The notes under the pieces were generated by a model. The model saw nothing but the letters and a program-made list of their open reading frames with translations, was not told the origin of the DNA and searched no databases. This document shows, piece after piece, positions 7,679 through 39,336 of a DNA stretch of 64,000 bases; positions within the stretch are counted from its first letter, which is position 1; the number at the start of each line of letters is the position of its first letter. Both the position numbers and the translations under genes were made by a program. The DNA comes from an uncultured Gammaproteobacteria bacterium (lineage in GTDB: Bacteria > Patescibacteriota > Patescibacteriia > Magasanikbacterales > UBA922). The stretch is from assembly GCA_964344965.1 (NCBI GenBank), contig CAYFPJ010000001.1, positions 22,771-86,770 of the forward strand. The letters run 5' to 3'.

Positions 7679-8053
7679 ATGAACATACTAGGTATTGACT
7701 ATGGTAAAAAGAGAATTGGACTTGCTTGGGTGCAGTCTGGTCTTGATGTGGTGTTGCCCTACGGAACAATTAACAATGAACAATTAACAATTAACAAACT
7801 TATTGAATTTGTTAGAGATGAAAAGATAGATAGAGTTGTCGTGGGTTTACCACTTGGTTTGGATGGGGGAGAAAATGAAAATACCAAAAAAGTTCGTGGT
7901 TTTGTAGAAGAATTTAAAAAAGAAATAAGTATACCTGTTGAATTTGTAGACGAACGTTTTTCTTCTCGTCAGGCTGATGTCATGGGTGGCGAGGTAAGCC
8001 GAGATGAGAAAGCAGCTATGGTTATTCTTCAGTCGTATTTGGATAAGGTTTGA
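7679..8053 (+). CDS. ruvX: Holliday-junction resolvase-like protein RuvX/YqgF
   Basis: MNILGIDYGKKRIGLAWV N-terminus with the RNase-H-like YqgF fold signature. Contains an in-frame caattaacaa-type tandem repeat at 7764-7798. Confidence 0.85.
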   Translation: MNILGIDYGKKRIGLAWVQSGLDVVLPYGTINNEQLTINKLIEFVRDEKIDRVVVGLPLGLDGGENENTKKVRGFVEEFKKEISIPVEFVDERFSSRQADVMGGEVSRDEKAAMVILQSYLDKV

Positions 8054-8086
8054 ATTTCAAATCACAGTTCCCCTCCTTAGAAAGCC

Positions 8087-8105
8087 ATGCCTGCCGGCAG
8101 GCAGG
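8087..8105. repeat. GC palindrome family member (gcctgccggcaggcagg)
   Basis: Seen directly. It is adjacent to an imperfect long hairpin (8104-8185) with an ACGAATATTCGT apex, and to a ccccctttccaaggggg hairpin. Confidence 0.7.
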
Positions 8106-8220
8106 GAGGGGTTAGAGGTGGTTGATTCATAGTACGAATATTCGTGGTGCTATCATCAACCCCCTCTAACTCCCCCTTTCCAAGGGGGAGGATTTACTTG
8201 GTAGATATGCCCTAATTTAT

Positions 8221-8982
8221 ATGAGAGCAATAGTACTAGCCAGACGTGACTTTCGTGAGTCCAATCAGGTGATCACAGTCTATACTCCTGACAAAGGGAA
8301 ACTCGAATTGATCGCACGTGGTCTAAAAAAAATTACAGCAAAAAACTCGGCTCATCTTGAGCCTTTTTCTTTCGTGGATATTGATACAGTGCCTGGCAAG
8401 GAATATGACTATCTGACCCGCGTCCATCCATTAGAGTATTTTACAGATATTCGTAAAGATTTGGACAAGAGTCTCGTGGCTCAGTACCTTCTCAATTTGG
8501 TCTATCGATTACTAAACATCGGTGAATCAGACAAGAGGGTTTTTGATCTTCTATACTCATGGTTTCGTTTTGTAGACAGCATAGATATTTTCAAAATTAT
8601 CCTCTTGGATTCTTTTGTTATGAAATTTTTCGCCTTGCTTGGTTTTCAGCCGGCACTAGAAGCTTGTGTGATTTGTGATCGTACTTACAGAAGTATGATG
8701 AAGGCTGATATCAAAGGTAAGCACAAACCTGGATTTTATTTTGCTGGGGGCGGATTAGTTTGCGAGGATTGTAAGCTTGAGAAAAGGAAAATAGGGGAGC
8801 AGATCGTGGATTGTGGAATTCGAGAGGTGAGTGACATGCAGATGATCTTGCGCGGAGATTGGCGAGAAGTGGCAAGTTTTGAGATTGATGAAGTAGAATA
8901 TAATAAGCTACACAAGTTAGTCTACGAGTTTGTGATTTATCATAGTGAGAAGAAGGTTGGGGATTGGGGTGAGGTGTTGTAG
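8221..8982 (+). CDS. recO: DNA repair protein RecO
   Basis: N-terminal OB region (AIVLARRDFRESNQVITVYT) and a C-terminal CxxC...CxxC zinc motif (CVICD...CEDC). 253 aa. Confidence 0.85.
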   Translation: MRAIVLARRDFRESNQVITVYTPDKGKLELIARGLKKITAKNSAHLEPFSFVDIDTVPGKEYDYLTRVHPLEYFTDIRKDLDKSLVAQYLLNLVYRLLNIGESDKRVFDLLYSWFRFVDSIDIFKIILLDSFVMKFFALLGFQPALEACVICDRTYRSMMKADIKGKHKPGFYFAGGGLVCEDCKLEKRKIGEQIVDCGIREVSDMQMILRGDWREVASFEIDEVEYNKLHKLVYEFVIYHSEKKVGDWGEVL

Positions 8983-9225
8983 ATGTTGGATCACTTCGTT
9001 TGTTGTAAATGTTTTATTGTTGTATTACTTTGTGGTATTTAATGCCTTTCATTATGTAAATTTGTCCAAGTTGGCACGAACCCCTCCTAACCTCCCCTAC
9101 GAGAGGAGGAATAATTCTGTATTAAAAAACACCTCGATGACCATCGGGGTGTTTTGATAGATTGGGAATGGGCGAGCAGCTGCAGCATGCAGATTGACCT
9201 CTGCTGCCCTCCCCCCTCCGCGTCG

Positions 9226-9387
9226 TCAGGTGACCATCGCCGCAACGATGGCCGCCAGGATGGCGACACGGAGGACGTGCATGGCGACGCGCCATGCACG
9301 AGTTCGCCGGATGGGCTCGGTGAGCCACCCGACGAACGAAGCTGCTGCCCACAAGAGGAGCAGCAGCATGATCACCACGAACCACAT
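9226..9387 (-). CDS. small hydrophobic protein (53 aa) inside a high-GC island, preceded by a perfect AGGAGG Shine-Dalgarno sequence
   Basis: The minus-strand ATG at 9387 is preceded by AGGAGGAACAA. The product is MWFVVIMLLLLLWAAASFVGWLTEPIRRTRAWRVAMHVLRVAILAAIVAAMVT. Local GC is far above the window average. Confidence 0.45.
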   Translation of the reverse strand: MWFVVIMLLLLLWAAASFVGWLTEPIRRTRAWRVAMHVLRVAILAAIVAAMVT

Positions 9388-9631
9388 TTGTTCCTCCTGT
9401 GGGTCTGGGTGAAGAAAAAGCACATTTTTGTAAATATATCTTTTCTTCACCCTATTTTTTCTAAAAATAGACTATTAAATATAACATGCTTTAGCCGTTT
9501 TGTCAACTTTTATGATCAAAAAACTTGCTTATCTTAGCAAAAAATGATAAATTACAGGCATAAGGTTTAAGATTTAAGACATAAGAATTTTCTTATCTTA
9601 TACCTTAAGTTTTATTTCTTATTTCTAAAAT

Positions 9632-10924
9632 ATGCATATTTTAATCAAAGATATCTCTAAGCATGTTGATCAAGAAGTGACGATCAAAGGCTGGCTCTAC
9701 AACAAGCGTTCTTCAGGTAAGATTGCCTTCCTTGAGTTGCGTGATGGGTCGGGGTTTATCCAAGCTATTGTTTCTCAGGCAGAAGTTAGTGAGCAAATTT
9801 GGCAAGATGTCGACAAGACTACCCAAGAATCTGCAGTAATCGTCACTGGAAAAGTTAGTAAACATCCCAAAAAAGAAAATATTTTTGAGTTGCAAGTTAC
9901 TGATTTTGTGCTGCATTCTCTTGCTCAGGAATATCCAATTACTAAGAAAGAACATGGCCCAGACTTCCTTCTCGACAATCGTCATCTCTGGCTCCGAAGT
10001 AAAAAGCAATGGGCTATCCAACGAGTCCGTGATGTAGTGATCCAGGCAATTTATGATTTTTATCATGCCAACGGATTTATAAAAATCGATACTCCAATCA
10101 TCACACCAAACGCATGTGAAGGAGCGACAACACTTTTTGGAATAGAGTATTTTGATCAGGGCGAAGTATTTCTCTCCCAATCTGGACAACTTTATCTCGA
10201 AGCAGCGATTATGTCTGTTGGTAGAGGATTTGATTTTGGTCCTACTTTTCGGGCAGAGAAAAGCAAAACCAAACGCCATCTGACAGAATTCTGGATGATG
10301 GATGCAGAGGCTGCTTATGTCGAACATGAGGAAAGCATGGAAATTCAAGAAAATATGATCGTATTTATTGTTGAGCAATGTCTTGAAAAATGTCAGCAAG
10401 AATTAGCTATCTTGGAGAGAGATCTCGAGCCACTTAAAAAAATACAAGCACCTTTCACTCGTTTGACCTATAGCGAAGCAATAGAAAAATTGAATTCACT
10501 CGGTTCAGATATAAAATTTGGTGAAGATCTTGGTAATGATGACGAAGGTACACTGACCCAGGATTCAGACGTGCCAGTATTTATTCACAAATGGCCCAAA
10601 GCAATCAAGCCATTCTATATGAAGCAAGATCCAGATAATCCAGAATTAGTGCTAAACAATGATCTAATAGGTACAGAAGGATCTGGAGAGCTAATCGGAG
10701 GATCTCAGCGTGAGGATGATTATGAGATATTGAAAGCTGCTATTGAAAAAGAAGGTCTAGAAGGAGAAGAATATCAGTGGTACCTAGATCTTCGCAAGTA
10801 TGGCTCTGTGCCTCATTCTGGCTTCGGTCTAGGATTAGAAAGGACTGTAGGGTGGATATGTGGTGTGAAGCACATCAGAGAGACTATCCCTTTCCCAAGA
10901 CTTATCAATAGAGTCAGACCTTAG
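9632..10924 (+). CDS. asnS: asparaginyl-tRNA synthetase (class IIb)
   Basis: N-terminal OB anticodon-binding domain and class II motifs (FRAEKSKTKRHLTEFWMMDAE, GSGELIGGSQRE, GFGLGLERTV). At 430 aa the length fits AsnRS rather than AspRS. Confidence 0.88.
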   Translation: MHILIKDISKHVDQEVTIKGWLYNKRSSGKIAFLELRDGSGFIQAIVSQAEVSEQIWQDVDKTTQESAVIVTGKVSKHPKKENIFELQVTDFVLHSLAQEYPITKKEHGPDFLLDNRHLWLRSKKQWAIQRVRDVVIQAIYDFYHANGFIKIDTPIITPNACEGATTLFGIEYFDQGEVFLSQSGQLYLEAAIMSVGRGFDFGPTFRAEKSKTKRHLTEFWMMDAEAAYVEHEESMEIQENMIVFIVEQCLEKCQQELAILERDLEPLKKIQAPFTRLTYSEAIEKLNSLGSDIKFGEDLGNDDEGTLTQDSDVPVFIHKWPKAIKPFYMKQDPDNPELVLNNDLIGTEGSGELIGGSQREDDYEILKAAIEKEGLEGEEYQWYLDLRKYGSVPHSGFGLGLERTVGWICGVKHIRETIPFPRLINRVRP

Positions 10925-10932
10925 ATTTTTGT

Positions 10933-12129
10933 ATGCCTGAAGGTGGTGGAAAACACGACATGGATCCCAAAGTTTCTGGACCAGATGATGCTGATTTTGT
11001 TGCTGCCCCGGAAGAAGAGGTGGTAGAGCAAGAAGCCAGATTTGAAGATGAGCCAACAGACGTTGCAGATTCGATAGAGAATGAAGAAGAGCGGGCTGTT
11101 CGACAGCAATCTCTGGAAGAGTTGAAAGCTGCTTATCTTGGCTATAGAATTAACCAAGACGGAAAAGAATTATCTTTTGCTGGGGCAATTGATAGAATTG
11201 AATCTCTAGCAGAAAAAATTTCTGGTTTTACTGCTGAAGAACAGTCTGAACAAGAAAATTACTCAGATGTGGATGGTGATGAATCAACCTTGGTTTATTC
11301 TGCCATAGACTCAAAGCTTAATGATATTTTTGTTTTTTCCTCTGAAAACGATTCAAGTAGAGAATTGAAAAGTAGTATTGAACAAAAATTTGATTCAGTA
11401 CTTGATAAAATCAAGAAGTTATTTTCTAGCGATGATACCATTGATGAACAAAAGATGGAGGAACAGATTAATAATATTTTGAAGAATTTTTTCAATTTTC
11501 TTGATAAATTATACAATAAATTGACCGCTGAGGGAGATGAAGAAGATGCTGCATCTTCTTTTAGAGAAGATTTGGCTACTTTAGATGAGGATGATTATTT
11601 CGATGATGAGCAAGAGGAAATAAAAGATGCTTCTCACTTACGTTTGGTTTCAACTGCTACTGATGATACAGATGAGAATAATGATGATGACGCAGCTGCG
11701 GCAGCTACCATGCTCCTTCTCAATAATGACGAAGCAGAAGGTTCCTTTGGTGCTGTAACAAAAGATCCTGAGATCGGCGAGAGGTGGAAGAAAATGATTG
11801 TCAGTGGATTTATGAACGGTTCTTTAATTAGAGAGAGTGACGGATCTTATAAAATGGAAGTTCGCAATCCGGTGATTCCATGGATTGCAGATAAGCCGGA
11901 AGAATTTTTCCGTAAGAATTATGAACGCCATGCCGGTGATCCAGAATATTTTTCTACCCGCCGTAATCCAGCTCGCGATGGAGAATTTTTTCCACGTGAG
12001 GTGTTTTTGGATGAGACTGGGACAGCATTAGACTTGTATATCAATGGACGATTTGATGAATTTGCCAGCACTGAGGCGGGGAAGAATTTTTATGCTGAGG
12101 AGCAGAGCCCCTTTGAGATAGCGGCATAG
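10933..12129 (+). CDS. hypothetical highly acidic protein (398 aa, D/E-rich)
   Basis: Complete ORF tightly following asnS. No recognisable domain. Confidence 0.55.
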   Translation: MPEGGGKHDMDPKVSGPDDADFVAAPEEEVVEQEARFEDEPTDVADSIENEEERAVRQQSLEELKAAYLGYRINQDGKELSFAGAIDRIESLAEKISGFTAEEQSEQENYSDVDGDESTLVYSAIDSKLNDIFVFSSENDSSRELKSSIEQKFDSVLDKIKKLFSSDDTIDEQKMEEQINNILKNFFNFLDKLYNKLTAEGDEEDAASSFREDLATLDEDDYFDDEQEEIKDASHLRLVSTATDDTDENNDDDAAAAATMLLLNNDEAEGSFGAVTKDPEIGERWKKMIVSGFMNGSLIRESDGSYKMEVRNPVIPWIADKPEEFFRKNYERHAGDPEYFSTRRNPARDGEFFPREVFLDETGTALDLYINGRFDEFASTEAGKNFYAEEQSPFEIAA

Positions 12130-12186
12130 AATGTATTTGCGAAATTACGAAAGGTGCGAAATATACGAACCATTAATAATACTAAA

Positions 12187-12256
12187 GGATTACCACCGAA
12201 AGGCGGTACCACGAAGATTGTGTGTGCTAGCCTGCCTTTCGGCAGGAATCCTAACG
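12187..12256. repeat. about 68-bp double-GNRA-hairpin element, copy 2 (reverse complement orientation of 5777-5846)
   Basis: The reverse complement reproduces aggattcctgccgaaaggcagg...accgcctttcggtgg..aatcc, with a different 22-nt centre. Confidence 0.7.
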
Positions 12257-12359
12257 TTTTGGTTGTTTTTTTGTACTTTTCGTAATTTTGCACATCTTAG
12301 ATATTTGCCAAAACTATATTATTTTGCTAAGATATTACTGTTAATTTAGCAAAATATTT

Positions 12360-14721: not shown

Positions 14722-14846
14722 AGTTTTTTAGAATAAAAATTACTATCCTCAGAGATAGTTTTTTATTGTATGAAGATAAAAAATATGCTATAATTATTTC
14801 GTTTTTTATGCCTTATTTTAGCAAAAATTTTGGAAATTATTGATTT

Positions 14847-15539
14847 ATGAATACTCCTATAAGCCTTGAGGAATTTAGTGGGCCACTTGATCTATTACTA
14901 TCTCTTGTACATGAAGAGAAGTTGGACATTACAGCTATTGCGCTTTCTCAGGTGACAGAACAATATATTGGCTATATAGAAGGTCTGGAGGAAAGTTCTG
15001 GTGAAGAGTTGGCTGACTTCGTAGTGGTGGCAGCCAGACTACTCCTCCTCAAATCTAGTAGACTAATGCCTCAGTTTGCGCCAGCAGAAGACGAAGGTCC
15101 AAGACTTGAAGATCAACTACGCTTATATCAGTCTTTTGTAAAAGCAAGCAAAGGTTTTAATCTTCTTTGGGAAAATGATAGGCAAAGTAGATTTCGTATC
15201 GAGCCACCACGGGTGTCGGAAGAATTTGTCATGCCAGCAAATACTACTCTAGCAAGCCTATACGAGTTCATGGTACAATTGATAAACCGGATCAAGCCTG
15301 CCAAACCATTACCGCAGACTCAGATTGACAGAGCAATATCCATCAAAGAAAAAATTGCAAATATTAGAAAATTGTTGAGAAGTAAAAAGAAGTTTAGTTT
15401 TCAGGAGGTACTAGAAGATTCAGAAAATAAGACAGATGTGATAGTAGGATTTTTGGCTTTACTCGAGCTGGTAAAACAAAAGCATGTGGGTCTAAAGCAA
15501 GAAGGTAATTTTGGGGATATTATGGTGAATCGGGCTTAA
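14847..15539 (+). CDS. scpA: segregation and condensation protein A
   Basis: N-terminus EEFSGPLDLLLSLVHEEKLDITAIALSQVTEQY is typical of the ScpA kleisin. Confidence 0.85.
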   Translation: MNTPISLEEFSGPLDLLLSLVHEEKLDITAIALSQVTEQYIGYIEGLEESSGEELADFVVVAARLLLLKSSRLMPQFAPAEDEGPRLEDQLRLYQSFVKASKGFNLLWENDRQSRFRIEPPRVSEEFVMPANTTLASLYEFMVQLINRIKPAKPLPQTQIDRAISIKEKIANIRKLLRSKKKFSFQEVLEDSENKTDVIVGFLALLELVKQKHVGLKQEGNFGDIMVNRA

Positions 15540-15584
15540 CACTTAAACACTTTAACACCTTAGCACTTAAACACTTGGTTTATT

Positions 15585-16121: not shown

Positions 16122-16126
16122 ATAAT

Positions 16127-19629: not shown

Positions 19630-20418
19630 TTGAGGTATAATATGCTACATATGTCCCGTGTTATAGCTATTGTCAACCAAAAAGGCGGAGTGGGAAAGAC
19701 CACGACAGCCATGAATTTGGCCGCTCATTTGGCTGAGCTTGGTAAATTTGTCTTACTCATAGATATGGATCCACAAGGTAATGCCAGTAGTGGACTTGGA
19801 TTTTCCAAAGACGATACACCTCATGGTATATACGAAGTTCTCGCTAGGCAAAAAAGAATGCATGATGTTGTTTTCAATACTGGACATGAGGGTCTGAGAA
19901 TAATTCCGGCTACTACCAATTTGGCTGGAGCGAACATAGAGCTGGTAGACATGGAAGATAGAGAGAGGCAACTCTTCAATTTGGTTGAAGAGGCTAAGCA
20001 CGCTTATGATTATATTATTATAGATTGTCCACCTTCTCTTGGTCTCCTTACAATCAATAGCTTGGTGGCTGCAGACGAACTTCTTATTCCTGTACAAGCA
20101 GAGTACTATGCTCTTGAAGGTCTTGGTCAACTTTTACAGACTATCAATTTAATTCAAGAACACATCAAGCCAGATCTGGGAATTCTTGGAGCAGTGATTA
20201 CTATGTTTGATAAGCGTACCAAGCTTTCTGGAGATGTCATGGATCAGCTATATCAGTATTTTCCAGATACCATATTCCGTTCTGTCATACCACGGACAGT
20301 CCGATTGGCAGAAGCTCCAAGTTTTGGTCAAACAATATTACAATACGATCCAAGAGGAAAAGGTTCGCGAGCCTATGAGAGGTTGGCTGTAGAAATTCTT
20401 GACAAACATAACAACTAA
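19630..20418 (+). CDS. parA: chromosome partitioning ATPase ParA/Soj
   Basis: Deviant Walker A IAIVNQKGGVGKTTTAMNLA and MDPQGN. The true start may be 19645 or 19651. Confidence 0.88.
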   Translation: MRYNMLHMSRVIAIVNQKGGVGKTTTAMNLAAHLAELGKFVLLIDMDPQGNASSGLGFSKDDTPHGIYEVLARQKRMHDVVFNTGHEGLRIIPATTNLAGANIELVDMEDRERQLFNLVEEAKHAYDYIIIDCPPSLGLLTINSLVAADELLIPVQAEYYALEGLGQLLQTINLIQEHIKPDLGILGAVITMFDKRTKLSGDVMDQLYQYFPDTIFRSVIPRTVRLAEAPSFGQTILQYDPRGKGSRAYERLAVEILDKHNN

Positions 20419-20457
20419 CAATTAACAACTAACAATCTTTGTCTGACTTGTTAATTG

Positions 20458-20604
20458 TTAAATCTTTAAGCGGTTTTATTCCTCGATGCTTGCATCGAAA
20501 AAGTGAAAACTAACATTGGTTGAAATAAGATTTTCTGCCAATACCCCGCAGCTTGCTGCGGGGATGGCCCGATGAAGTCTTACTTAAACCAAATTTACTT
20601 TTAT
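20458..20604. repeat. 147-bp element, copy A (exact duplicate of 27204-27350), ending 22 nt upstream of the parB ATG
   Basis: Identical sequence, read directly. Contains hairpins cgatg-cttg-catcg and ccccgcag-cttg-ctgcgggg (CUUG tetraloops). Confidence 0.85.
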
Positions 20605-20625
20605 TGTTAATTGTCAATTGTCATT

Positions 20626-21489
20626 ATGGCTTTAGGAAAAGGATTAAATTCTCTTATTCCACAATCTAAGTCTCGCAAAAGAATACGTAAGGAGACTAGC
20701 TCAGATAAAAATAATCATGAGCGTATTTGGTATATCCCTTTGTCAGAAATAACACCAAATAGTGAACAGCCTCGAAAGAATTTTTCTCACAAAGAGATCG
20801 AAGACTTGGTACAATCAATTAAAAAACACGGCATTTTACAACCCATTACCGTTACAGAAAAAGAAGACGGGGGGTATGAGCTTATTGCGGGGGAAAGAAG
20901 ATTGAGATCTTCTGAGATTGCGGGCTTGGCCACGATTCCAGCCATTGTGCGCAGTGCCACAAGTCAGGAAAAATTGGAGTTGGCTCTCATTGAAAATATT
21001 CAACGTCAAAATCTTGATCCAATCGAAGAGGCTTTTGCTTATCAGAGATTGATACAAGAGTTTGGGCTTACTCAGCAGGAAGTTTCTGCTCAGGTGGGCA
21101 AAAGTCGTCCTGTAATTGCCAATACTATTAGGTTGTTGGACTTGCCAGACAAGATTCAAAAAGCTTTGGTGGATAGGCAGATTAGTGTTGGGAAAGCAAG
21201 AGCATTGCTTAGTCTCAAAAGTGACAAAGAACAAATGAAAGTATTCATAGAAATGATAGGTCAAAAGGCTACTGTCCGTGATGTCGAAAAAGCTGTGGCT
21301 GCCAAGGGGCAGAGTTCACGCAAAGGTTCTGTGAGACGTGATCCTAATATCAGAGCTACAGAACAATTGATAGAAGAAAGAGTTGGTTCTAAAGTGCATA
21401 TTACCCAAAAGGGGGAGCGGGGTACTATAGTGATTGAGTATAACTCCAAAGGAGAGCTGAAGAGGATTGTGGAGGAGATAATCATTTGA
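20626..21489 (+). CDS. parB: chromosome partitioning protein ParB (Spo0J)
   Basis: ParB box GILQPITV...LIAGERRLRSSEIAG, HTH region. Start chosen at MALGKGLNSLIP. Confidence 0.88.
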   Translation: MALGKGLNSLIPQSKSRKRIRKETSSDKNNHERIWYIPLSEITPNSEQPRKNFSHKEIEDLVQSIKKHGILQPITVTEKEDGGYELIAGERRLRSSEIAGLATIPAIVRSATSQEKLELALIENIQRQNLDPIEEAFAYQRLIQEFGLTQQEVSAQVGKSRPVIANTIRLLDLPDKIQKALVDRQISVGKARALLSLKSDKEQMKVFIEMIGQKATVRDVEKAVAAKGQSSRKGSVRRDPNIRATEQLIEERVGSKVHITQKGERGTIVIEYNSKGELKRIVEEIII

Positions 21490-27089: not shown

Positions 27090-27203
27090 TATATATCGCA
27101 CCATATTGAGAGAAAGTAAATTTTAGATATATTTATATATCTCTTACGGAATATAGGATTAACTAACTAAATATATATTTTACATTAACTTTACTAAATA
27201 ATT

Positions 27204-27350
27204 TAAATCTTTAAGCGGTTTTATTCCTCGATGCTTGCATCGAAAAAGTGAAAACTAACATTGGTTGAAATAAGATTTTCTGCCAATACCCCGCAGCTTG
27301 CTGCGGGGATGGCCCGATGAAGTCTTACTTAAACCAAATTTACTTTTATT
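27204..27350. repeat. 147-bp element, copy B, ending 4 nt upstream of the ATG at 27354
   Basis: Exact duplicate of 20458-20604. Confidence 0.85.
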
Positions 27351-27353: not shown

Positions 27354-27713
27354 ATGAAAAGAATGGACGCAGGGAAACCAAGAAAAAACGTTGATGCTCA
27401 AGAGTTGTCACATGGACATGTAAAAAGTAAAATTTTGGGTTTGACAAAATTTATAACTTCCAGTAGGGAAGGTCATATATTTCCGCAAGTAGATCAATCG
27501 CAATTGGTGCTTAACACTTTAGAAGAAGGTCGCGTCTTGGAAGATGCTGATTTAAGCTCAGTTGATTTGATATCATTTGTAGGTTCTATTGAAGAGGAGT
27601 TTGGTATTAATTTTGTTGGTCAGGAAATACACGGCTTACAACAATCAACTATAGATAAGATTGCTGAAAAAGTAATGGAAAAAATTAAAAATAAACCTAC
27701 TATGGATAGCTAG
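27354..27713 (+). CDS. acyl-carrier-protein-like protein (PP-binding domain with N-terminal extension)
   Basis: DADLSSVDLISFVGSIEEEFGINF...STIDKIAEKV aligns well with ACP [24 protein letters not shown]...helix 4. Confidence 0.5.
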   Translation: MKRMDAGKPRKNVDAQELSHGHVKSKILGLTKFITSSREGHIFPQVDQSQLVLNTLEEGRVLEDADLSSVDLISFVGSIEEEFGINFVGQEIHGLQQSTIDKIAEKVMEKIKNKPTMDS

Positions 27714-27719: not shown

Positions 27720-29033
27720 CTATTTTTTTGTATGTAATTCTCCGCTCAAAAAAATAGAACCGGTAACTAAAATTAGATCATCTTTCGAGGTGATCTTTTT
27801 TATACTCTCAAGAGCCTCTTTCGGATCAAGAAAAATTTTCATCTTAGTTTTTGGCAGAAGTTTTTTTAGCTTTTTATATATTGTTTGCGGGTCAGCTACT
27901 TTGCGAAAAGGGTTGCTGGTATAGCGAGTGATAGCTATTGATTTTGGGTTTAGTTTGGCAAGTTCGCGGAGCATGGTTGAGACATCTTTGTTGGCGGAGA
28001 AACCTATAATTAGGTGTATGGGTTTGCAAGTTTGCAAGTTTGCAAGTTTGCAAATTGCTTCCACTGTGGTTTTCATCTTATATGGATTGTGGGCGGCGTC
28101 GAGAATAATCGTTGGGTTTTGAGAGACTATTTCCATGCGGAGAGGTTGGTGTGCATTTTTGAGACCAAGCTTTATTTTGTTTTCTGGAACACCAAGTGAT
28201 CTTGCTATTTCTATACACAAAATTGCGTTCCTGATTTGATGTTGTCCAGGTACATTTATTTTGTAGTTTTGTTTATGGTAATTAAAAATTTGTTCATTAA
28301 AAAATTGTTTGAAAATTGAAAATTGAAAATTGAAAATTTTAAGCGAGGCTTTTTGTTTTTTACATTCATTTTCAATAATTTTCAATACTTTTTTGTTTTT
28401 TTCTGCTGTGAATACAAGATTGCCTTGCTTGATAATACCCGCTTTCTCATATGCAATTTCCTCCTTATTATTCCCAATGATTCCGACATGATCTAATCCG
28501 ATGTTGGTAATTACAGCAACATCTTTGTGAGGGATGACATTGCTAGCATCGTAGCGTCCACCGCAAGCCACCTCAAGTACTGCCCATTTTACTTTTTTAC
28601 GCGCAAAATAGACAAAACCGATTGCTTCGGTTAATTCAAAAAAAGATAGCATGTCGTACGGGGTGGTCCTGATATACTCATCCAACTTTGGTTTGATGTA
28701 TTCTATTAGCTCAACAAATTCACGTTTGCTCATGTATTTATTCCCGACCTTCCAGCGCTCAGTAATTGTAGTAGGGTGAGGAGAATAGGTTGATCCGACA
28801 TTTTTTTCACTTTCTTTCAAGATAGAGTGAAGGAAGCTGGTGACAGAGCCTTTGCCGCTAGTACCAGTAACATGTATGTAGTGAGAGATTTTTTTTTCTG
28901 GATTGTCTAGAATATCTAGGAAGAATTGAAGACGCTTAAGATACCACTCACATTTTCGTGGGTCGGTCATGTATTCTTTGCGGGGTAAGTTGAAGAGGGA
29001 GATGAGGTAGTTGTAGGCGGATTGGAAGTTCAC
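27720..29033 (-). CDS. folC: Mur-ligase-family folylpolyglutamate synthase / dihydrofolate synthase-like protein
   Basis: ATP-binding loop HVTGTSGKGS, the Mur ligase central and C-terminal domains. Carries in-frame tandem repeats (gtttgcaa x4; gaaaatt x4). Confidence 0.75.
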   Translation of the reverse strand: MNFQSAYNYLISLFNLPRKEYMTDPRKCEWYLKRLQFFLDILDNPEKKISHYIHVTGTSGKGSVTSFLHSILKESEKNVGSTYSPHPTTITERWKVGNKYMSKREFVELIEYIKPKLDEYIRTTPYDMLSFFELTEAIGFVYFARKKVKWAVLEVACGGRYDASNVIPHKDVAVITNIGLDHVGIIGNNKEEIAYEKAGIIKQGNLVFTAEKNKKVLKIIENECKKQKASLKIFNFQFSIFKQFFNEQIFNYHKQNYKINVPGQHQIRNAILCIEIARSLGVPENKIKLGLKNAHQPLRMEIVSQNPTIILDAAHNPYKMKTTVEAICKLANLQTCKPIHLIIGFSANKDVSTMLRELAKLNPKSIAITRYTSNPFRKVADPQTIYKKLKKLLPKTKMKIFLDPKEALESIKKITSKDDLILVTGSIFLSGELHTKK

Positions 29034-31485: not shown

Positions 31486-31645
31486 GGATATTTAATCCCG
31501 ACCTCGTTCCTCGGTACGGGACGAGGGACTGGTTTAACCTGCCTGCCGGTCTTCGACTATGAAGCTCAGACTGAATAGCAGGCAGGCCCCCCGAGACTTG
31601 CTTCGGAAAAAAGGGTCCAGGGGCTTGTCTTAGGGTTCATACCTT
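31486..31645. repeat. about 150-bp structured repeat, copy 1; its internal GC palindrome is split by a 28-nt insert
   Basis: ttaatcccgacctcgttcctcggtacgggacgag...ggtttaacctgcctgccgg[tcttcgactatgaagctcagactgaata]gcaggcagg...gggtccag...catacc..ttgatt. Shared with 36248-36400. Confidence 0.75.
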
Positions 31646-31662
31646 TGATTGGATTTATAAAT

Positions 31663-33683: not shown

Positions 33684-33716
33684 AATGTTTATTTTAGTAA
33701 CTAGTAACTAGAAATT

Positions 33717-35162: not shown

Positions 35163-35316
35163 AATGGACCCTAGTATACGTGATTTTTTTATTTTTTACA
35201 ATCGATCTCTCTTTTTCTATTTTTAATCTTGTCTTGCTCAAAATGTCTTGCTCAAAATATTAGCTTTGTGCTATACTTAGTTTAAATTTGAACTCATATC
35301 AAGTTTTTCAAACCCA

Positions 35317-35399
35317 CCAAAATATTAACTTATTTTTTAGCCCCAAAACTCGTCTTTGGACTCACACAATTGTGTCTAAAAAATAAGTTAATATTTTGG
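35317..35399. promoter_or_regulatory. 24-bp perfect inverted repeat (ccaaaatattaacttattttttag / ctaaaaaataagttaatattttgg) with a nested 12-bp palindrome ACACAATTGTGT, in a divergent intergenic region
   Basis: Arms are exact reverse complements. The inner palindrome is at 35363-35374. Confidence 0.5.
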
Positions 35400-35462
35400 C
35401 TCTATTTTGGTCAAAAATAGGTAAAACTTAATACAAGTTCTTTAAGGAGTATTTTTCTGTTT

Positions 35463-35966
35463 ATGCCAGAAGCATTGTCAGAACAAACAACAATTGGAGA
35501 TATAAAGCACCGATGGACTATCCAAGAGTATGATAGCCATGATCGAGGTACTTTATGGCACATCCTCATGATCACTTTGGGGATAATATTTGTGGTGTAT
35601 GCCTTATGGACTGGTAATTTTTTGTTTGCCTTGATAGTGGTACTATTTTCAATAGTAATTTTTTTACAGTCTAATCAAGAAGCCTTACAAGTCAATTTCG
35701 CAATTACAGATCTTGGTATAGTGATTGGTCGTAGATTTTATGCTTATTCTGAATTTGAAAGTTTTTATGTGATTTACCAGCCACCGGAAGTAAAGACTCT
35801 GTTTCTAGAGACCAGAAGCACCTTCCGTCCATCGATTCGTATCCCTCTACTTGACGAAGATCCTGTGCAGGTCAGGAAAGATCTTTCTATTTTTTTGGAA
35901 GAGGATCTCGAAAAGGAAGATGAGCCACTTAGTGACAGAGCTGCGAGGAGATGGAAGATACATTAG
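35463..35966 (+). CDS. hypothetical membrane protein (2 TM, 167 aa)
   Basis: ORF with two hydrophobic helices. No motif. Confidence 0.45.
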   Translation: MPEALSEQTTIGDIKHRWTIQEYDSHDRGTLWHILMITLGIIFVVYALWTGNFLFALIVVLFSIVIFLQSNQEALQVNFAITDLGIVIGRRFYAYSEFESFYVIYQPPEVKTLFLETRSTFRPSIRIPLLDEDPVQVRKDLSIFLEEDLEKEDEPLSDRAARRWKIH

Positions 35967-36138
35967 TGAAATTTTCAATTTTTAATTTTCAATTTTTAAA
36001 ATTGTCTTATTGACAGTTTTATTTTTTTACGATATATTGTTGACGTCAAATGCCCCTGTTGCCCCTGTAGTTTCCCGACTTTGTCGGGATCAGCCTTTGG
36101 CTGATAATGGATAGTCCCGATATATAGATTTTGGTTCA

Positions 36139-36210
36139 GCTCTCGTCGTTCAACGGATAGGACACCAGTTTGCGGAACTGGCAATGCAGGTTCGATTCCT
36201 GCCGAGAGCA
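36139..36210 (+). tRNA. tRNA with anticodon GCG (reads as tRNA-Arg)
   Basis: GCTCTCG-TC-GTTC-AACGGATA-GGAC-A-CCAGT-TTGCGGA-ACTGG-CAAT-GCAGG-TTCGATT-CCTGC-CGAGAGC-A. All four stems pair. U33 and G37 are present. Confidence 0.75.
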
Positions 36211-36247
36211 CTATTTTTGAAGGTTTTGTACTACGTACGTTTCCTAC

Positions 36248-36400
36248 GATTTTAATCCCGACCTCGTTCCTCGGTACGGGACGAGAGATCGGTTTAACCT
36301 GCCTGCCGGCAGGCAGGTTCCCCGGGGCTTGCCCCGGAAAAATGGGTCCAGTCCCGATAAAATCGGGACTGGGGCTCATACCATTGATTTAAACTTTTTG
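36248..36400. repeat. about 150-bp structured repeat, copy 2 (intact GC palindrome at 36298-36317), 38 nt downstream of the tRNA
   Basis: Aligns with 31486-31645. Contains hairpins ccgggg-cttg-ccccgg and agtcccgat-aaaa-tcgggact. Confidence 0.75.
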
Positions 36401-36437
36401 GTATACTAGGATTGAAATGTTCTAGTTTTATTTTTTT

Positions 36438-37061
36438 ATGCAGAAGATAGAAAAAAATACTCCAAAAACACAAATTATTTTTTCAGTTATTATATTGTTG
36501 TTTGCCAATATACTTGTTATTGGTTTAGCCTTATTTTATTACTGGTCGCTTCATACATTTTTTTTGGTATTTTGGGCCCAAAGTTTGATTATTGGTTTTT
36601 TCTATATTTTGAAAATACTTGATCTAAAAAATTTTTCTACCGAGGGAGTAAAGGTCAATGGAAAATTGGTAAAACCAACAAAAAAGTTTAAAAAAGAAAG
36701 TGCTTGGTTTTTCTTACTCCATTATGGTTTTGTGCATTTTTGTATTTATTTTGCTATTGGTGATATGGCTGGGGAGGTTGATTGGAAAATGGTAATAATC
36801 GGGTCAATTATCTTCTTTGTAAATCACTGTTTGTCTTTTATCATAAATAGAAAACAAGATCGTCTACGGGTTTTTCATATTGGTAAAATTATGATTTTCC
36901 CATATTTGCGTATTTTTCCAATGATTATATTAATTTGGTTAGCATTGAACTTTGCTTCAGACCAATCAACACTTTTATTTTTTTTGGCATTTAAAATTGT
37001 GGCTGATATGACTATGCATGTTGTGGAGCATATTTGGCATGGTGAGACATCATTTTTGTAG
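36438..37061 (+). CDS. hypothetical polytopic membrane protein (207 aa)
   Basis: 5-6 hydrophobic segments. No motif. Confidence 0.45.
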   Translation: MQKIEKNTPKTQIIFSVIILLFANILVIGLALFYYWSLHTFFLVFWAQSLIIGFFYILKILDLKNFSTEGVKVNGKLVKPTKKFKKESAWFFLLHYGFVHFCIYFAIGDMAGEVDWKMVIIGSIIFFVNHCLSFIINRKQDRLRVFHIGKIMIFPYLRIFPMIILIWLALNFASDQSTLLFFLAFKIVADMTMHVVEHIWHGETSFL

Positions 37062-37065
37062 ATAC

Positions 37066-39336
37066 ATGAAATTAGATTCGCAGGTTTCACAATTGAATAG
37101 AGTCGGTAAAGTTCTGGAAAAAAAGCTAGGACGTCTTGGTATTGTTACAGTTGTAGATTTGCTAAATTATTTTCCTTTCCGTTATGAGGATTTTAGTCAG
37201 ATCGTAGATATAAAAGATTTACAAGAAGGATTGGAGGTGACTGTGCGAGGTAGAGTGGAATTGATAGCCAACAAGAGAAGTTCTCGTAAGCGAAAAATTA
37301 TTACAGAAGCAATAGTCAGTGACGGCACCGATAGTTTGCGAATTATCTGGTTTGGCCAACCCTTTATTACCAAGATTTTGAAAGCTGGAGATGATGTATT
37401 TTTTTCTGGTAAGGTGAAGGATGATATGTTTGGGTTACAGATGGTGGGACCGGGGTATGAGAAAGCTGGACAGAGGACTTCCCGCAGGACCTCACCCGCA
37501 CTCGCTTCGCTCGTGTCGACCTCTCCTGAAAGGAGAGGTGAATATGGTGGTGCTTCCAAACCTGCTTTAGATACGACGCACACCGCTCGTATTGTACCGA
37601 TATATCCTCTGACTGCGGGGGTTACACAGAAGCAAGTGCGTTTTTTGATGAAGCAGGTTATTGATTTGTCTAGTAGTATGGAAGATTGGCTGCCGGATGA
37701 TATTCAGGATCGGGTGGATGTCATGGAATTCTCAGAAGCCATAAAAGCAATTCATTTTCCTGATTCTCAAGATGAGCTTAGACATGCTGAAAGGAGATTG
37801 AAATTTGATGAGTTATTTCTCTTACAACTTCGAGCAGAGATGATCAGACAATCGATCAAGAGATCAAAGGCTCCAGAGATCAAATTTCAAGAAAATGAAA
37901 TCAAAACTTTTGTAGACTCACTTCCATTCAAATTAACTAAAGATCAAAAGATTGCTGCTTGGGAAATATTGCAGGATCTGGAAAAAGCAGAACCGATGAA
38001 TAGATTGCTGGAGGGAGATGTGGGGTCTGGAAAGACTGTGGTGGCAGCGATGGCTCTCTACAGTTCGGTGCTGAATGGTTTTCAAGGGGTGCTGATGGCA
38101 CCGACAGAGATTTTGGCGAAACAGCATTTTTCTTCACTGTGTGAATTGCTTGGCGGTAAAGTTAGTATTGGTTTGCTGTCACGTTCAGAACGAACAACGA
38201 ACAACGAACAACGAACAAGTGACAAAGAAGAAAGTTCGTCGATGGTTGATCGTAGTTCGTCAAAAAAATTGTCAAAGAAAAAAATGTTAGAGAAAATAGA
38301 GAATGGTGAATTGGAAATAATTGTTGGTACTCATGCCTTACTTTCTGATGACATAGGATTTGCAGACTTGGGTTTGGTCATCGTGGATGAGCAGCACAGA
38401 TTTGGAGTGGAACAGAGAAAAAAGATTCGAGAAAAGTCTGGTAATAAAAAAACATCTCCACATTTCTTATCTATGACAGCTACACCTATTCCACGTTCTT
38501 TTGCCCTCACTGTGTATGGTGATCTCGATTTGTCTATCATACGAGAGATGCCGGCAGGTCGGAAGCCAGTGCAGACTAGACTTGTGGACCCACATCAAAG
38601 GGATAAGGCGTATAGGTTTATCCGGGAGCAGGTGAGCGACGGTAGGCAGGTTTTTGTAGTGTGTCCTTTGATACAAGAAAAAGGAAAAGAGATAAGAGAT
38701 AAAGAGATACCTTTTATCTCGCAGCCTGCTAAACAGAATGCCTATCTTGTATCTCCATCTGTAGAAAAAAAATCAGTGCTTGCAGAATATGAGAAACTTT
38801 CTAAACAAATATTTCCAGATTTGAAAATTAGTTTTCTTCATGGCAAGATGAAGGCAAAAGAAAAGGATGAGGCGATGGCAAATTTTGTGACAGGGGAGAC
38901 AGATATCCTGGTCTCTACTTCGGTGGTGGAGGTGGGGGTGAATATTCCTAATGCCAGTGTGATGATGATCGAAGGTGCTGAAAATTTTGGCCTGGCCCAG
39001 CTACATCAGTTTCGTGGGCGTGTAGGTAGGAGTGGGCATCGATCTTATTGCTTTTTGTTTACTGATAGTGATAGCCAAAAAGTACAAGAAAGACTTTCTT
39101 TTTTTGAAAAAAATAATAGTGGTTTTGATGTGGCAGAATATGATCTGGAGATGCGCGGCCCAGGAGAGGTCTATGGTAAAGCTCAGAGTGGGATGGAGCA
39201 ACTGCGTCTGGCTTCGATGCGAGACGGTGAGTTGATTAAACTGGCTAGAGAAGTGGCGAGAGGAATTGATTTTGAGAAGTATCCTGAGCTGAGGGAGAAA
39301 GTGGAGGAATGGGAAGATTCTGTTCATTTAGAATGA
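37066..39336 (+). CDS. recG: ATP-dependent DNA helicase RecG
   Basis: Wedge/OB N-terminus, helicase motifs I (GDVGSGKT), II (DEQHRFGV), VI (QLHQFRGRVGRS). Start chosen at MKLDSQ. Carries a GC-rich in-frame insert (37448-37560) and a cgaacaa x4 tandem repeat (38191-38218). Confidence 0.9.
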   Translation: MKLDSQVSQLNRVGKVLEKKLGRLGIVTVVDLLNYFPFRYEDFSQIVDIKDLQEGLEVTVRGRVELIANKRSSRKRKIITEAIVSDGTDSLRIIWFGQPFITKILKAGDDVFFSGKVKDDMFGLQMVGPGYEKAGQRTSRRTSPALASLVSTSPERRGEYGGASKPALDTTHTARIVPIYPLTAGVTQKQVRFLMKQVIDLSSSMEDWLPDDIQDRVDVMEFSEAIKAIHFPDSQDELRHAERRLKFDELFLLQLRAEMIRQSIKRSKAPEIKFQENEIKTFVDSLPFKLTKDQKIAAWEILQDLEKAEPMNRLLEGDVGSGKTVVAAMALYSSVLNGFQGVLMAPTEILAKQHFSSLCELLGGKVSIGLLSRSERTTNNEQRTSDKEESSSMVDRSSSKKLSKKKMLEKIENGELEIIVGTHALLSDDIGFADLGLVIVDEQHRFGVEQRKKIREKSGNKKTSPHFLSMTATPIPRSFALTVYGDLDLSIIREMPAGRKPVQTRLVDPHQRDKAYRFIREQVSDGRQVFVVCPLIQEKGKEIRDKEIPFISQPAKQNAYLVSPSVEKKSVLAEYEKLSKQIFPDLKISFLHGKMKAKEKDEAMANFVTGETDILVSTSVVEVGVNIPNASVMMIEGAENFGLAQLHQFRGRVGRSGHRSYCFLFTDSDSQKVQERLSFFEKNNSGFDVAEYDLEMRGPGEVYGKAQSGMEQLRLASMRDGELIKLAREVARGIDFEKYPELREKVEEWEDSVHLE

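What the first reader, a model, noticed from the sequence alone, without database searches (positions are those of the whole stretch)
7764..38219. In-frame short tandem repeats inserted into conserved housekeeping genes
Four conserved genes carry in-frame tandem repeats that add low-complexity peptide segments without breaking the frame:
- ruvX carries aacaattaacaa-type repeats at 7764-7798 (peptide NNEQLTINKL).
- The folC-like gene carries gtttgcaa x4 at 28022-28053 and gaaaatt x4 at 28311-28340.
- recG carries cgaacaa x4 at 38191-38218 (peptide ERTTNNEQRT).
- rseP has a K/N-rich insert (60340-60420).

The same caattaacaa word also occurs intergenically after secY (4590-4615) and flanking parAB (20409-20461, 20601-20625). 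Microsatellite expansion within essential genes is unusual in bacteria. It may provide phase- or length-variable linkers, or it may mark relaxed selection.
Basis: seen in the sequence. Interest (0 to 1): 0.6.

Follow-up and report, generated by a model that had tools for sequence, protein, structure and literature searches.

The report
Heptamer repeat arrays inside housekeeping genes
This uncultured Magasanikbacteria (CPR) genome is peppered with short tandem arrays of 7- and 8-base units, mostly between genes; a few sit in frame inside conserved genes (ruvX, a folC-like gene, recG), where selection lets them persist only if they keep the frame and contain no stop codon.

Summary
The repeats are real, at the stated coordinates, and far beyond chance. 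Period-7 arrays number 12 against 0.15 in shuffles, and period-8 arrays 7 against 0.17. Periods 3, 5 and 6 show no arrays.

They are not microsatellites private to four genes. They belong to a genome-wide population of roughly 4-unit heptamer and octamer arrays. About half lie in the 9% of the window that is non-coding, usually within 15 nt of a start or stop codon.

"Inserted low-complexity segments" holds only for recG and the rseP loop. In ruvX and the folC-like gene the arrays encode segments that align almost gap-free to solved homologues, and in FolC they model as folded.

The arrays are old. A relative with 64% identical FolC carries the nucleotide-identical perfect array at the same codons. 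The ruvX site carries AACAATT here and perfect AACAACG in a relative, at the same length.

The only mismatch in the ruvX array is the base that removes an in-frame TAA.

Consensus assemblies from four sequencing runs show no copy-number change.

Best reading: slippage-generated heptamer repeats filtered by selection, not phase switches. This is a new variant of a known kind.

The parts
7765..7797 (+). Heptamer array AACAATT x4.7 in ruvX (7679-8053), encoding residues 30-40 (TINNEQLTINK). Its single mismatch, T>G at 7778, turns an in-frame TAA into GAA.
28309..28338 (-). Perfect heptamer array (AATTTTC x4.3 on the coding strand) in the folC-like gene (27720-29033, minus strand), encoding residues 233-242 (IFNFQFSIFK). 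In the model this is a loop plus a beta strand.
28022..28053 (-). Perfect octamer array (TTGCAAAC x4 on the coding strand) in the folC-like gene, encoding residues 328-338 (CKLANLQTCKP). In the model this is a helix end plus a loop.
38189..38218 (+). Perfect heptamer array AACGAAC x4.3 in recG (37018/37066-39336), encoding residues 391-401 (ERTTNNEQRTS). It sits at the start of a lineage-variable, low-confidence insert between helicase motifs I/Ia and II.
38686..38709 (+). Weaker 7/8-mer array AAGAGAT x3.1 in recG, encoding residues 557-564 (KEIRDKEI). It lies inside the third variable insert, which has pLDDT below 50.
60358..60390 (+). K/N-rich run (KKNKNKNKEKD) in rseP (60182-61369). It is a weak hexamer, codon-pair repeat inside an old, length-variable roughly 36-aa loop insert. 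It is not a heptamer array.
4592..4614 (+). Intergenic perfect AATTAAC x3.3 array (the same necklace as AACAATT), 7 nt after the secY stop and followed by a terminator-like hairpin.
15538..15576 (+). Octamer array AACACTTA x4.9 that fills the scpA-scpB spacer. The scpA stop codon TAA lies inside the array.
20409..20435 (+). TAACAAC/TAACAAT x3.9 array overlapping the parA stop codon. It forms a hairpin with the downstream TTGTTAATTGTT.
20603..20623 (+). ATTGTTA/ATTGTCA x3 array (inverted AACAATT family), 4 nt upstream of the parB ATG at 20627.
35970..35996 (+). Intergenic AATTTTC x3.9 array, 4 nt after a stop codon. It uses the same unit as the folC array. A relative (L088) has an array at the syntenic position with a diverged unit.
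56264..56370 (-). Inverted pair of ATTCGTA-type arrays (56264-56290 and 56340-56370) between two minus-strand genes. It folds into a long hairpin (-41.6 kcal/mol, z -6.7).
63207..63294 (+). Inverted pair of AACATAT-type arrays starting 2 nt after the pheS stop. It folds into a hairpin (z -3.9).

Best explanation
The window comes from a Candidatus Magasanikbacteria (Patescibacteria/CPR) genome with a strong, lineage-typical tendency to form short tandem arrays of 7-nt units, and less often 8-nt units, usually about 4 units long. The proposed origin (inferred, not shown) is slipped-strand mispairing or short-homology duplication during replication.

Most arrays sit in the small non-coding fraction, hard against start and stop codons and often as inverted pairs. 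A minority sit inside genes. There selection allows only arrays that meet three conditions:
1. They change length by a multiple of 3 nt, that is three units at a time or with compensation.
2. They have no stop codon in any of the three phases in which the unit is read.
3. They lie in segments whose sequence the fold tolerates.

Three units of a heptamer are translated in all three phases and so give a 7-residue peptide.

Once established, the arrays are long-lived. Copy number and position stay fixed, while the unit can be replaced in all copies at once (concerted evolution by slippage or conversion).

In ruvX, the folC-like gene and recG the arrays are therefore tolerated, selection-filtered by-products that recode variable or permissive protein segments. 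They are not on/off or length switches.
For: Specific 7/8-mer excess:
- Period 7 gives 12 arrays against 0.15 in shuffles, and period 8 gives 7 against 0.17; other periods show little or no excess.
- Array density at TRF score >=45 is 10.9 per 100 kb here. It is 5.7 in Magasanikbacteria relatives, 1.6 in other CPR loci and 1.2 in about 1 Mb of mostly Firmicutes loci.

Location:
- About half of the arrays lie in, or overlap, the 9% of the window that is non-coding. Most of these are within 15 nt of a start or stop codon.

Selection filter:
- 9 of 11 in-gene units are stop-free in the coding orientation, against about 42-52% expected for AT-rich heptamers.
- The two exceptions (window ruvX AACAATT and L088 folC AATTAAA) are the imperfect arrays. 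The mismatch is the base that destroys the in-frame TAA.
- Most intergenic units carry stops.
- 16 of 17 in-gene arrays have 3.9-4.9 copies, as expected for one seed plus three units. Among intergenic arrays the figure is 9 of 14, ranging from 3.3 to 7.0.

Age and concerted evolution:
- The ruvX site has AACAATT x4.7 here and perfect GAACAAC x3.9 in L083 at the same codons and the same length. L084 and L086 have degenerate heptamer periodicity there.
- The folC array is nucleotide-identical in L088, whose FolC protein is 64% identical. In the array region 16 of 16 codons are the same, against a background of 0.467 (P about 5e-6).
- At the folC octamer site, L088 carries a heptamer array instead.
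- The variable loop of recG carries heptamer arrays in L001-L004, L007 (Berkelbacteria), L014 and L078. None were found inside recG in about 60 non-CPR loci at TRF score >=45.

Stability:
- Assemblies from four sequencing runs show zero gaps across the arrays.

Precedent:
- Heptamers are reported as the most abundant long simple-sequence repeats in many bacteria, with polymerase slippage proposed as the cause (Mrazek 2007, as summarised in PMC4679880 and PMC4692102).
Against: - The generating mechanism is inferred. Nothing here shows slippage, and no explanation is offered for why 7-8 nt is favoured.
- Arrays in RuvX and in FolC region A cause no length change relative to distant homologues. 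Simple '+3 units' insertion therefore does not explain them without a compensating deletion or in-place conversion.
- Nucleotide-level identity of the FolC array across deep divergence, and positional conservation of intergenic arrays, would also fit selection on the DNA or RNA itself.
- The same units (AATTTTC, AACAACG, AACAATT) recur in different genes and genomes, although 222 AT-rich stop-free necklaces are available. This hints at preferred units or ectopic spread.
- The contrast in copy number between in-gene and intergenic arrays is only suggestive. The samples are small and the detection threshold truncates the low end.
Confidence: 0.6

Rival explanations
1. The arrays are functional cis-elements maintained by selection at the nucleic-acid level. 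They could be binding sites for a factor that reads heptad-periodic DNA or RNA, or building blocks of RNA hairpins that control termination, processing or translation. On this view the genic copies are retained because of that role, not merely tolerated.
For: - The FolC array and its flanks are nucleotide-identical between genomes whose FolC proteins are 64% identical: 16 of 16 identical codons against a background of 0.467, P about 5e-6.
- Perfect or near-perfect arrays are kept at the same sites in diverged lineages.
- Intergenic arrays hug start and stop codons and occur as inverted pairs that fold far better than shuffles, with z scores from -3.5 to -11.7.
- A syntenic intergenic array is conserved between the window (35970) and L088 (1808).
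- Similar positional preferences and a regulatory role were proposed for GGGAATC repeats in Xanthomonas/Nostoc and for TAACTGA repeats in Beggiatoaceae.
Against: - Units differ widely between sites and lineages. No single motif is shared.
- Several orthologous arrays have simply decayed (L084 and L086 in ruvX; the P0249 and P0340 peptides in FolC), so perfection is not universally selected.
- If arrays are kept homogeneous, every unit position is read as codon position 1, 2 and 3. Protein-level selection alone can then freeze the nucleotide sequence.
- No Rfam family matches.
- No candidate binding protein was identified.
Confidence: 0.2
2. The genic arrays are contingency loci. Gain or loss of single units by slippage reversibly frameshifts ruvX, folC or recG (phase variation), or in-frame changes tune linker length.
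For: - Non-triplet tandem repeats inside ORFs are the classical substrate of phase variation (PMC3315296).
- Three of the arrays are perfect.
- One sister assembly has recG inactivated, although by a point mutation and not at the array.
Against: - Copy number is identical in consensus assemblies from four sequencing runs.
- It is also identical across relatives at 64-76% protein identity.
- The 90% clusters of the exact RuvX and FolC proteins contain no length variants.
- Four units of a 7-mer is a short tract.
- The genes are core housekeeping genes, not surface or host-interaction genes.
- The arrays in RuvX and FolC encode structured segments.
Confidence: 0.07
3. The repeats mark relaxed selection or incipient pseudogenisation of dispensable repair and metabolic genes in a reduced symbiont genome.
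For: - recG carries a nonsense SNP (E431*, G>T at 38308) in assembly ERZ930065.
- RecG has three long inserts with low model confidence.
Against: - All four ORFs are intact in the window and match full-length Pfam models.
- The catalytic motifs are invariant in alignments.
- The stop-removing substitution in the ruvX array and the stop-free unit bias show active purifying selection.
- The arrays are shared with relatives that also keep intact genes.
Confidence: 0.05
4. The repeats are sequencing or assembly artefacts.
For: None found.
Against: - Seven independent contigs from four runs, built with two assembly pipelines (ENA and Logan), are 99.9-100% identical with no gaps across the arrays.
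- Homologous arrays exist in unrelated assemblies from other projects.
Confidence: 0.01

Closest known systems
Long simple-sequence repeats with 5-11-nt units in prokaryotic genomes, heptamers predominant (Mrazek, Guo & Shah 2007, as summarised in PMC4679880 and PMC4692102)
   Same: - A statistically over-represented class of short tandem arrays whose dominant unit length is 7 nt.
- The arrays are mainly intergenic.
- Slippage tied to polymerase contact length was proposed as the cause.
   Different: - That class was described mainly for large, often GC-rich genomes of non-pathogens. This is a small, roughly 38% GC CPR genome.
- Non-triplet units were reported as disfavoured in coding regions. 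Here several sit in frame in core genes and are conserved in position across lineages.
GGGAATC / GGGGA(T/C)T heptamer repeats of Xanthomonas and Nostoc (Rehm et al. 2015, PMC4692102)
   Same: - Heptamer arrays with a preference for about four units.
- They are placed within tens of nt of stop or start codons and between co-oriented genes.
- They occasionally occur as inverted pairs.
   Different: - One G-rich unit per genome was interpreted through G-quadruplex formation. Here the units are many, A/T-rich and cannot form G4, yet the roughly 4-unit size recurs.
[quoted passage not shown]
TAACTGA direct repeats of marine Beggiatoaceae, some Cyanobacteria and Bacteroidetes (MacGregor 2015, PMC4679880), and the cyanobacterial tandem heptanucleotides first reported in Calothrix (named STRR from my own knowledge)
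   Same: - Heptamer arrays of 2-6 units lie next to start codons.
- That author noted that stop codons in the unit limit where arrays can lie in genes, and that the stop-free orientation yields a 7-residue repeating peptide.
   Different: - There a single favoured heptamer dominates each genome and related heptamers are rarely repeated. Here there is a diverse unit repertoire.
- No case was reported of arrays embedded in conserved housekeeping enzymes, or of concerted unit replacement at a fixed site.
Contingency loci (phase-variable SSRs) of host-adapted pathogens
   Same: Non-triplet tandem repeats lie inside open reading frames.
   Different: - Those are long tracts of 1-5-nt units (occasionally 7-nt) in surface or restriction-modification genes, with copy number varying between and within strains.
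- Here the arrays are short, fixed in copy number and sit in housekeeping genes.
Perfect tandem repeats in Borg elements that create intrinsically disordered regions (Schoelmerich et al. 2023, PMC9879509)
   Same: Tandem nucleotide repeats arise de novo inside ORFs and add or recode peptide segments.
   Different: - Borg genic repeats have unit lengths divisible by three and many copies, and they create disordered regions.
- Here the units are 7 or 8 nt, read in three phases, with about 4 copies. Two of the three genes carry them in structured segments.

Membership tests
Heptamer-dominated long SSRs (LSSR, 5-11-nt units) | Tandem head-to-tail copies of a 5-11-nt unit, at least 3 copies, high identity | tested here: met
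   TRF and an exact-run scan find 12 period-7 and 7 period-8 arrays of >=2.9 copies at >=80% matches. Four arrays are perfect, at 3.3-4.3 copies.
Heptamer-dominated long SSRs (LSSR, 5-11-nt units) | Over-representation relative to composition-matched random sequence, with period 7 the dominant class | tested here: met
   Period 7 gives 12 vs 0.15 and period 8 gives 7 vs 0.17 in 40 dinucleotide shuffles. Periods 3, 5 and 6 give 0 arrays against 0.03-0.23 in shuffles. The same bias is seen in 189 kb of Magasanikbacteria DNA.
Heptamer-dominated long SSRs (LSSR, 5-11-nt units) | Enrichment in non-coding DNA | tested here: met
   About 10 of 18 arrays lie in, or overlap, the roughly 9% of the window that is non-coding.
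Single-motif heptamer systems (Xanthomonas GGGAATC, Beggiatoa TAACTGA) | One favoured heptamer sequence accounts for nearly all arrays in the genome | tested here: not met
   At least 10 different necklaces occur in 64 kb. The AACAATT family is the commonest, at 4 loci.
Single-motif heptamer systems (Xanthomonas GGGAATC, Beggiatoa TAACTGA) | Placement within about 50 nt of start or stop codons; about 4 units; inverted pairs | tested here: met
   For example, arrays lie 2-7 nt after the secY, pheS and 35966 stops, overlap the scpA and parA stops, and lie 4 nt before the parB ATG.
Single-motif heptamer systems (Xanthomonas GGGAATC, Beggiatoa TAACTGA) | G-quadruplex-forming G-tracts (Xanthomonas/Nostoc type) | tested here: not met
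   The units are A/T-rich and lack G3 tracts.
Phase-variable contingency loci | Repeat copy number differs between isolates or within populations, including out-of-frame alleles | tested here: not met
   Consensus assemblies from four runs have zero indels across the arrays. There are no variant members in the protein clusters. Minority alleles in reads could not be tested.
Phase-variable contingency loci | Genes affected are surface, host-interaction or restriction-modification functions | tested here: not met
   The genes are RuvX, a FolC-like Mur ligase and RecG.
Borg-type amino-acid tandem repeats | Genic repeat unit length divisible by 3 | tested here: not met
   The units are 7 and 8 nt. 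Only the rseP K/N run has period 6/12.
Borg-type amino-acid tandem repeats | Repeats create intrinsically disordered regions | tested here: inconclusive
   The RecG arrays lie in inserts with pLDDT below 50. The FolC arrays have pLDDT 75-90 and defined secondary structure. The RuvX array aligns to loop/helix residues of solved homologues.

The most novel reading that the evidence does not exclude
Heptamer arrays in CPR bacteria may be actively maintained elements. On this reading, a homogenising process or a heptad-reading nucleic-acid-binding factor keeps arrays of about 4 units perfect at fixed positions for very long periods. This would apply both at gene boundaries, where inverted pairs form hairpins, and inside core genes.

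Parts of conserved enzymes would then be encoded by sequence whose every base is simultaneously a first, second and third codon position. That would be a previously undescribed coupling of a cis-element system to protein coding.
Probability: 0.15. Interest if true: 0.75.

Novelty: new variant of a known kind. Interest (0 to 1): 0.5.

Why it matters
- It shows how a non-triplet mutational process can still write protein sequence. Three 7-nt units read in three phases give a 7-residue segment, with selection visibly editing out the stop codon.
- Short arrays like these can persist at fixed sites in core genes across deep CPR divergences while their unit sequence turns over in concert.
- This is a source of the lineage-specific inserts and loop variability typical of CPR proteins.
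- It is a caution for alignment, phylogenetic marker and annotation work on these genomes.
- The roughly 4-unit size preference for A/T-rich units questions the G-quadruplex explanation given for the same preference elsewhere.

Tried and rejected
- **Exact-sequence look-ups of the window's RecG** (772-aa and 756-aa starts) found nothing. The sister assembly explains part of this, since recG is split there by a nonsense SNP.
- **DNA for P0248**, the orthologue that shares the ANLQT[CF]KP octamer peptide, was not retrievable.
- **Rfam at gathering threshold** found only two tRNAs. No known RNA family covers any array or the 148-nt repeat.
- **Four-unit preference.** I tested whether perfect arrays prefer exactly four units. 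There are too few perfect arrays (2 with 3 copies, 3 with 4) to say.
- **Copy-number contrast.** In-gene arrays fall at 3.9-4.9 copies in 16 of 17 cases, intergenic arrays in 9 of 14. This is suggestive only, and the TRF score threshold truncates the low end.
- **RecG loop homology.** I first read the RecG-loop arrays of L007, L014 and L078 as strictly homologous to those of Magasanikbacteria. Their positions within the loop differ (N-terminal versus C-terminal end), so I claim only a shared hot-spot region.
- **Literature.** Searches for simple-sequence repeats in Patescibacteria/CPR returned nothing relevant. The Mrazek 2007 paper itself could not be found in the library and is cited second-hand.
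- **Metagenome scan for (AACAATT)x3.7.** This unit is not lineage-specific, and the hits were not assigned to taxa.

Full report
**1. What is in the sequence.**

The window is about 38% GC. Its best protein matches are named Candidatus Magasanikbacteria / Patescibacteria. Pfam confirms the four genes as RuvX, a FolC-like Mur ligase, RecG and an M50/PDZ RseP-type protease.

- ruvX, 7765-7797: AACAATT x4.7, with one mismatch.
- folC-like gene, 28022-28053: GTTTGCAA x4.0, perfect.
- folC-like gene, 28309-28338: TTGAAAA x4.3, perfect.
- recG, 38189-38218: AACGAAC x4.3, perfect.
- After secY (4592-4614) and on both sides of the parA-parB spacer (20409-20435 and 20603-20623): arrays of the AACAATT family.

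recG holds a further weak array at 38686-38709. The rseP K/N run is a different object, a weak hexamer (KN)n repeat.

**2. More than chance, and specific to periods 7 and 8.**

I compared the window with 40 dinucleotide-preserving shuffles. It has 12 period-7 arrays where 0.15 are expected, and 7 period-8 arrays where 0.17 are expected. Periods 3, 5 and 6 have no arrays.

The coding fraction is about 91%, yet roughly half of the arrays lie in or overlap non-coding DNA. So the genic repeats are the minority members of a genome-wide population of roughly 4-unit heptamer and octamer arrays. They are not a peculiarity of four genes.

The intergenic arrays sit hard against gene ends:
- 2-7 nt after the secY, pheS and 35966 stop codons.
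- Overlapping the scpA and parA stop codons.
- 4 nt before the parB ATG.

Several form inverted pairs that fold into long hairpins, with z scores from -3.5 to -6.7 here and -11.7 in a relative.

**3. Not an artefact, and not visibly polymorphic.**

Independent ENA and Logan assemblies from four runs of PRJEB17505 match the window without a single gap across the arrays at 4592, 7765, 28022 and 28309. One of them, L089, also covers 35970, 38189 and 38686. Only six SNPs were seen.

The exact RuvX and FolC proteins occur on several contigs, and their 90% clusters have no variant members. Minority alleles in reads could not be examined.

**4. Insertions or not.**

*RecG.* An alignment of 30 Magasanikbacteria orthologues shows three hypervariable regions. 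Relative to T. maritima RecG (1GM5) the window's protein has extra residues in each: about +32, +23 and +24. In an AlphaFold model exactly these segments (153-198, 399-415, 552-584) have pLDDT below 50. The two recG arrays lie at the start of the second insert and inside the third. For recG, "inserted low-complexity segment" is fair.

*RseP.* Most homologues lack about 36 residues between the HExxH helix and the LPLGGFV motif. Others have inserts from a few to about 90 residues at that point. The insert is old and variable, and the K/N run is a small local feature of it.

*RuvX.* The array-encoded residues 30-40 align to solved homologues (7W89, 1IV0), and those homologues are 1-2 residues longer there. 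The shortest Magasanikbacteria orthologues are only about 4 residues shorter.

*FolC.*
- The heptamer array encodes IFNFQFSIFK. This aligns to the YVIDKDFSV strand region of T. maritima FolC 1O5Z, again with the query shorter.
- In a confident model (pLDDT 89, pTM 0.90) these residues form a loop plus a beta strand.
- The octamer-encoded residues 328-338 form a helix end plus a loop.
- At the octamer site the net excess over distant homologues is 3-4 residues.

In these two genes the arrays recode ordinary parts of the fold rather than add linkers.

**5. The arrays are old and evolve in concert.**

*ruvX site.* Four lineages have the same segment length. The window has AACAATT x4.7. L083 (70% identical protein) has a perfect GAACAAC x3.9. 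L084 and L086 have decayed but still heptamer-periodic sequence. Two near-perfect arrays that differ at the same unit positions in every copy cannot arise by independent point decay. The unit has been replaced array-wide.

*folC heptamer site.* L088, whose FolC is 64% identical, has the nucleotide-identical perfect AATTTTC x4.3 at the same codons. In that region 16 of 16 conserved residues use the same codon, against 46.7% elsewhere in the gene (P about 5e-6).

*folC octamer site.* L088 carries a heptamer array (AATTAAA x4.6) instead.

*recG variable loop.* It carries heptamer arrays in L001-L004 (GAAATTG-type, starting at the same codon as the window's array), in a Berkelbacteria locus (L007), and in L014 and L078. 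I found none inside recG in about 60 non-CPR loci at TRF score >=45.

*Orthologue peptides.* Peptides such as NFQFSIF, QITNYKLQI and QISNFKFQN in other RecG orthologues look like translated heptamer arrays (my back-translation, DNA not checked).

*Density.* At TRF score >=45 period-7 arrays number 10.9 per 100 kb here, 5.7 in Magasanikbacteria relatives, 1.6 in other CPR loci and 1.2 in about 1 Mb of mostly Firmicutes loci. A few non-CPR loci are also array-rich.

**6. Selection is visible in the arrays.**

Three heptamer units are read in all three phases, so any stop trinucleotide in the cyclic unit will fall in frame.
- The three perfect genic arrays of the window have stop-free units in the coding orientation.
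- AACAATT contains TAA. The only mismatch in the ruvX array (T>G at 7778) is the base that turns that TAA into GAA.
- The same holds for L088's AATTAAA array.
- Overall 9 of 11 in-gene units are stop-free, against about 42-52% of AT-rich heptamer necklaces. Most intergenic units carry stops.
- In-gene arrays have 3.9-4.9 copies in 16 of 17 cases, which fits one seed plus three units. Intergenic arrays range from 3.3 to 7.0. This contrast is only suggestive.

**7. Mechanism.**

Shown:
- A lineage-typical excess of 7/8-nt tandem arrays.
- Their non-coding bias.
- The stop-free and frame filters.
- Positional persistence with unit turnover.
- No consensus-level copy-number variation.

Inferred:
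- The arrays arise by slipped-strand mispairing. This is the cause proposed for the heptamer predominance among bacterial long SSRs.
- Homogenisation is by slippage or conversion.
- The genic copies are tolerated by-products.

If an array is kept homogeneous, no unit position is synonymous, because each is read as codon position 1, 2 and 3. That could by itself explain the nucleotide-level freezing of the FolC array.

The main rival is that the arrays are selected cis-elements. It is supported by the FolC conservation, the syntenic intergenic array and the hairpins. It is weakened by the diversity of units and by decayed orthologous arrays.

Phase variation, relaxed selection and artefact are poorly supported.

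**8. Comparison with known systems.**

The closest known kinds are:
- The heptamer-dominated long SSRs of prokaryotes.
- The GGGAATC repeats of Xanthomonas/Nostoc, which show a four-unit preference, placement near stop and start codons, and inverted pairs.
- The TAACTGA repeats of Beggiatoaceae, where the stop-codon limitation and the 7-residue peptide were already pointed out.

The present case differs in four ways:
- The host is a small A/T-rich CPR genome.
- There are many units rather than one.
- There is no G4 potential.
- The arrays are embedded, position-conserved and concertedly evolving inside core housekeeping enzymes.

Contingency loci and Borg amino-acid repeats fail defining features (see the membership table). 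Searches of the library found nothing on such repeats in Patescibacteria.

A metagenome scan shows that AACAATT arrays as such are widespread and can be much longer. They occur on contigs that are generally heptamer-rich.

**9. Verdict.**

I classify it as a new variant of a known kind, of moderate interest. The interest would rise if the arrays prove to be actively maintained elements.

Noticed in passing
window 20458-20605 and 27203-27350: A 148-nt direct repeat, 100% identical. One copy ends about 20 nt upstream of the parB ATG (20627) and the other about 3 nt upstream of the ATG of ORF 27354-27713. It contains internal GC-rich hairpins (CCCCGCAGCTTGCTGCGGGG). It has no Rfam match. Three independent assemblies break exactly at it. 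It may be a duplicated leader or promoter element, or a small mobile element. The parAB heptamer arrays flank one copy.
   Followed up: partly
window 38308 (recG codon 431): In the sister assembly ERZ930065 (L089) a G>T SNP turns GAA into TAA, and RecG is called there as two genes. This is either a real inactivated allele in that sample or a consensus error. It is unrelated to the heptamer array 90 nt upstream.
   Followed up: partly
window 56255-56378 (minus strand); 63200-63300; L088 11345-11460: Inverted pairs of heptamer arrays form long intergenic hairpins: -41.6 kcal/mol (z -6.7), z -3.9, and -43.7 kcal/mol (z -11.7). The L088 pair uses the same AACAATT unit as the window.
   Followed up: partly
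window 31491-31549 and 36251-36309; 52558-52602 and 56330-56374: Two further short dispersed repeats. One is 59 nt at 95% identity, with one copy just downstream of tRNA-Arg. The other is 45 nt at 80% identity and includes the ATTCGTA array. So at least one array is part of a duplicated segment.
   Followed up: no
window 5065-5104: A 9/10/18-nt tandem repeat (TTTTCAAGCC-type; the 18-mer is x2.2 at 95%). It lies just upstream of the likely true adk start (MKKIIILMGVPGSGKG) and inside the longer called ORF, where it would encode FFKPFKLFKPFKFF. It is unclear whether it is translated.
   Followed up: partly
window 47451-49766 (minus strand): A 771-aa ORF with no Pfam match. It is full of low-complexity pyrimidine-rich repeats on the plus strand (TTTCCT and similar, 47879-48017) and has a 211-nt internal duplication (48572/48893, 78%). 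The region has extreme AT skew (-0.36).
   Followed up: no
L083 11936-13334: A relative's ruvX neighbourhood carries a diversity-generating-retroelement-like pair (a bAvd accessory gene plus a reverse transcriptase) about 1.5 kb downstream of ruvX. It has no evident connection to the heptamer arrays.
   Followed up: no
L014 (13.5 kb; MAG 'bacterium isolate ELA570'), L074 (Ruminococcus sp.), L056: Some other genomes are even richer in heptamer arrays. L014 has at least 7 in 13.5 kb, three of them perfect and inside ORFs. L074 has 5 in 12 kb. The trait is patchy across bacteria, not confined to Magasanikbacteria.
   Followed up: partly
RecG orthologues P0027, P0038, P0051, P0075, P0078, P0085: Several Magasanikbacteria RecG proteins are about 880-900 aa and carry an embedded PDDEXK_3 (GxxExxY, PF13366) domain. 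That is a much larger insertion in RecG than the repeat-derived ones.
   Followed up: no
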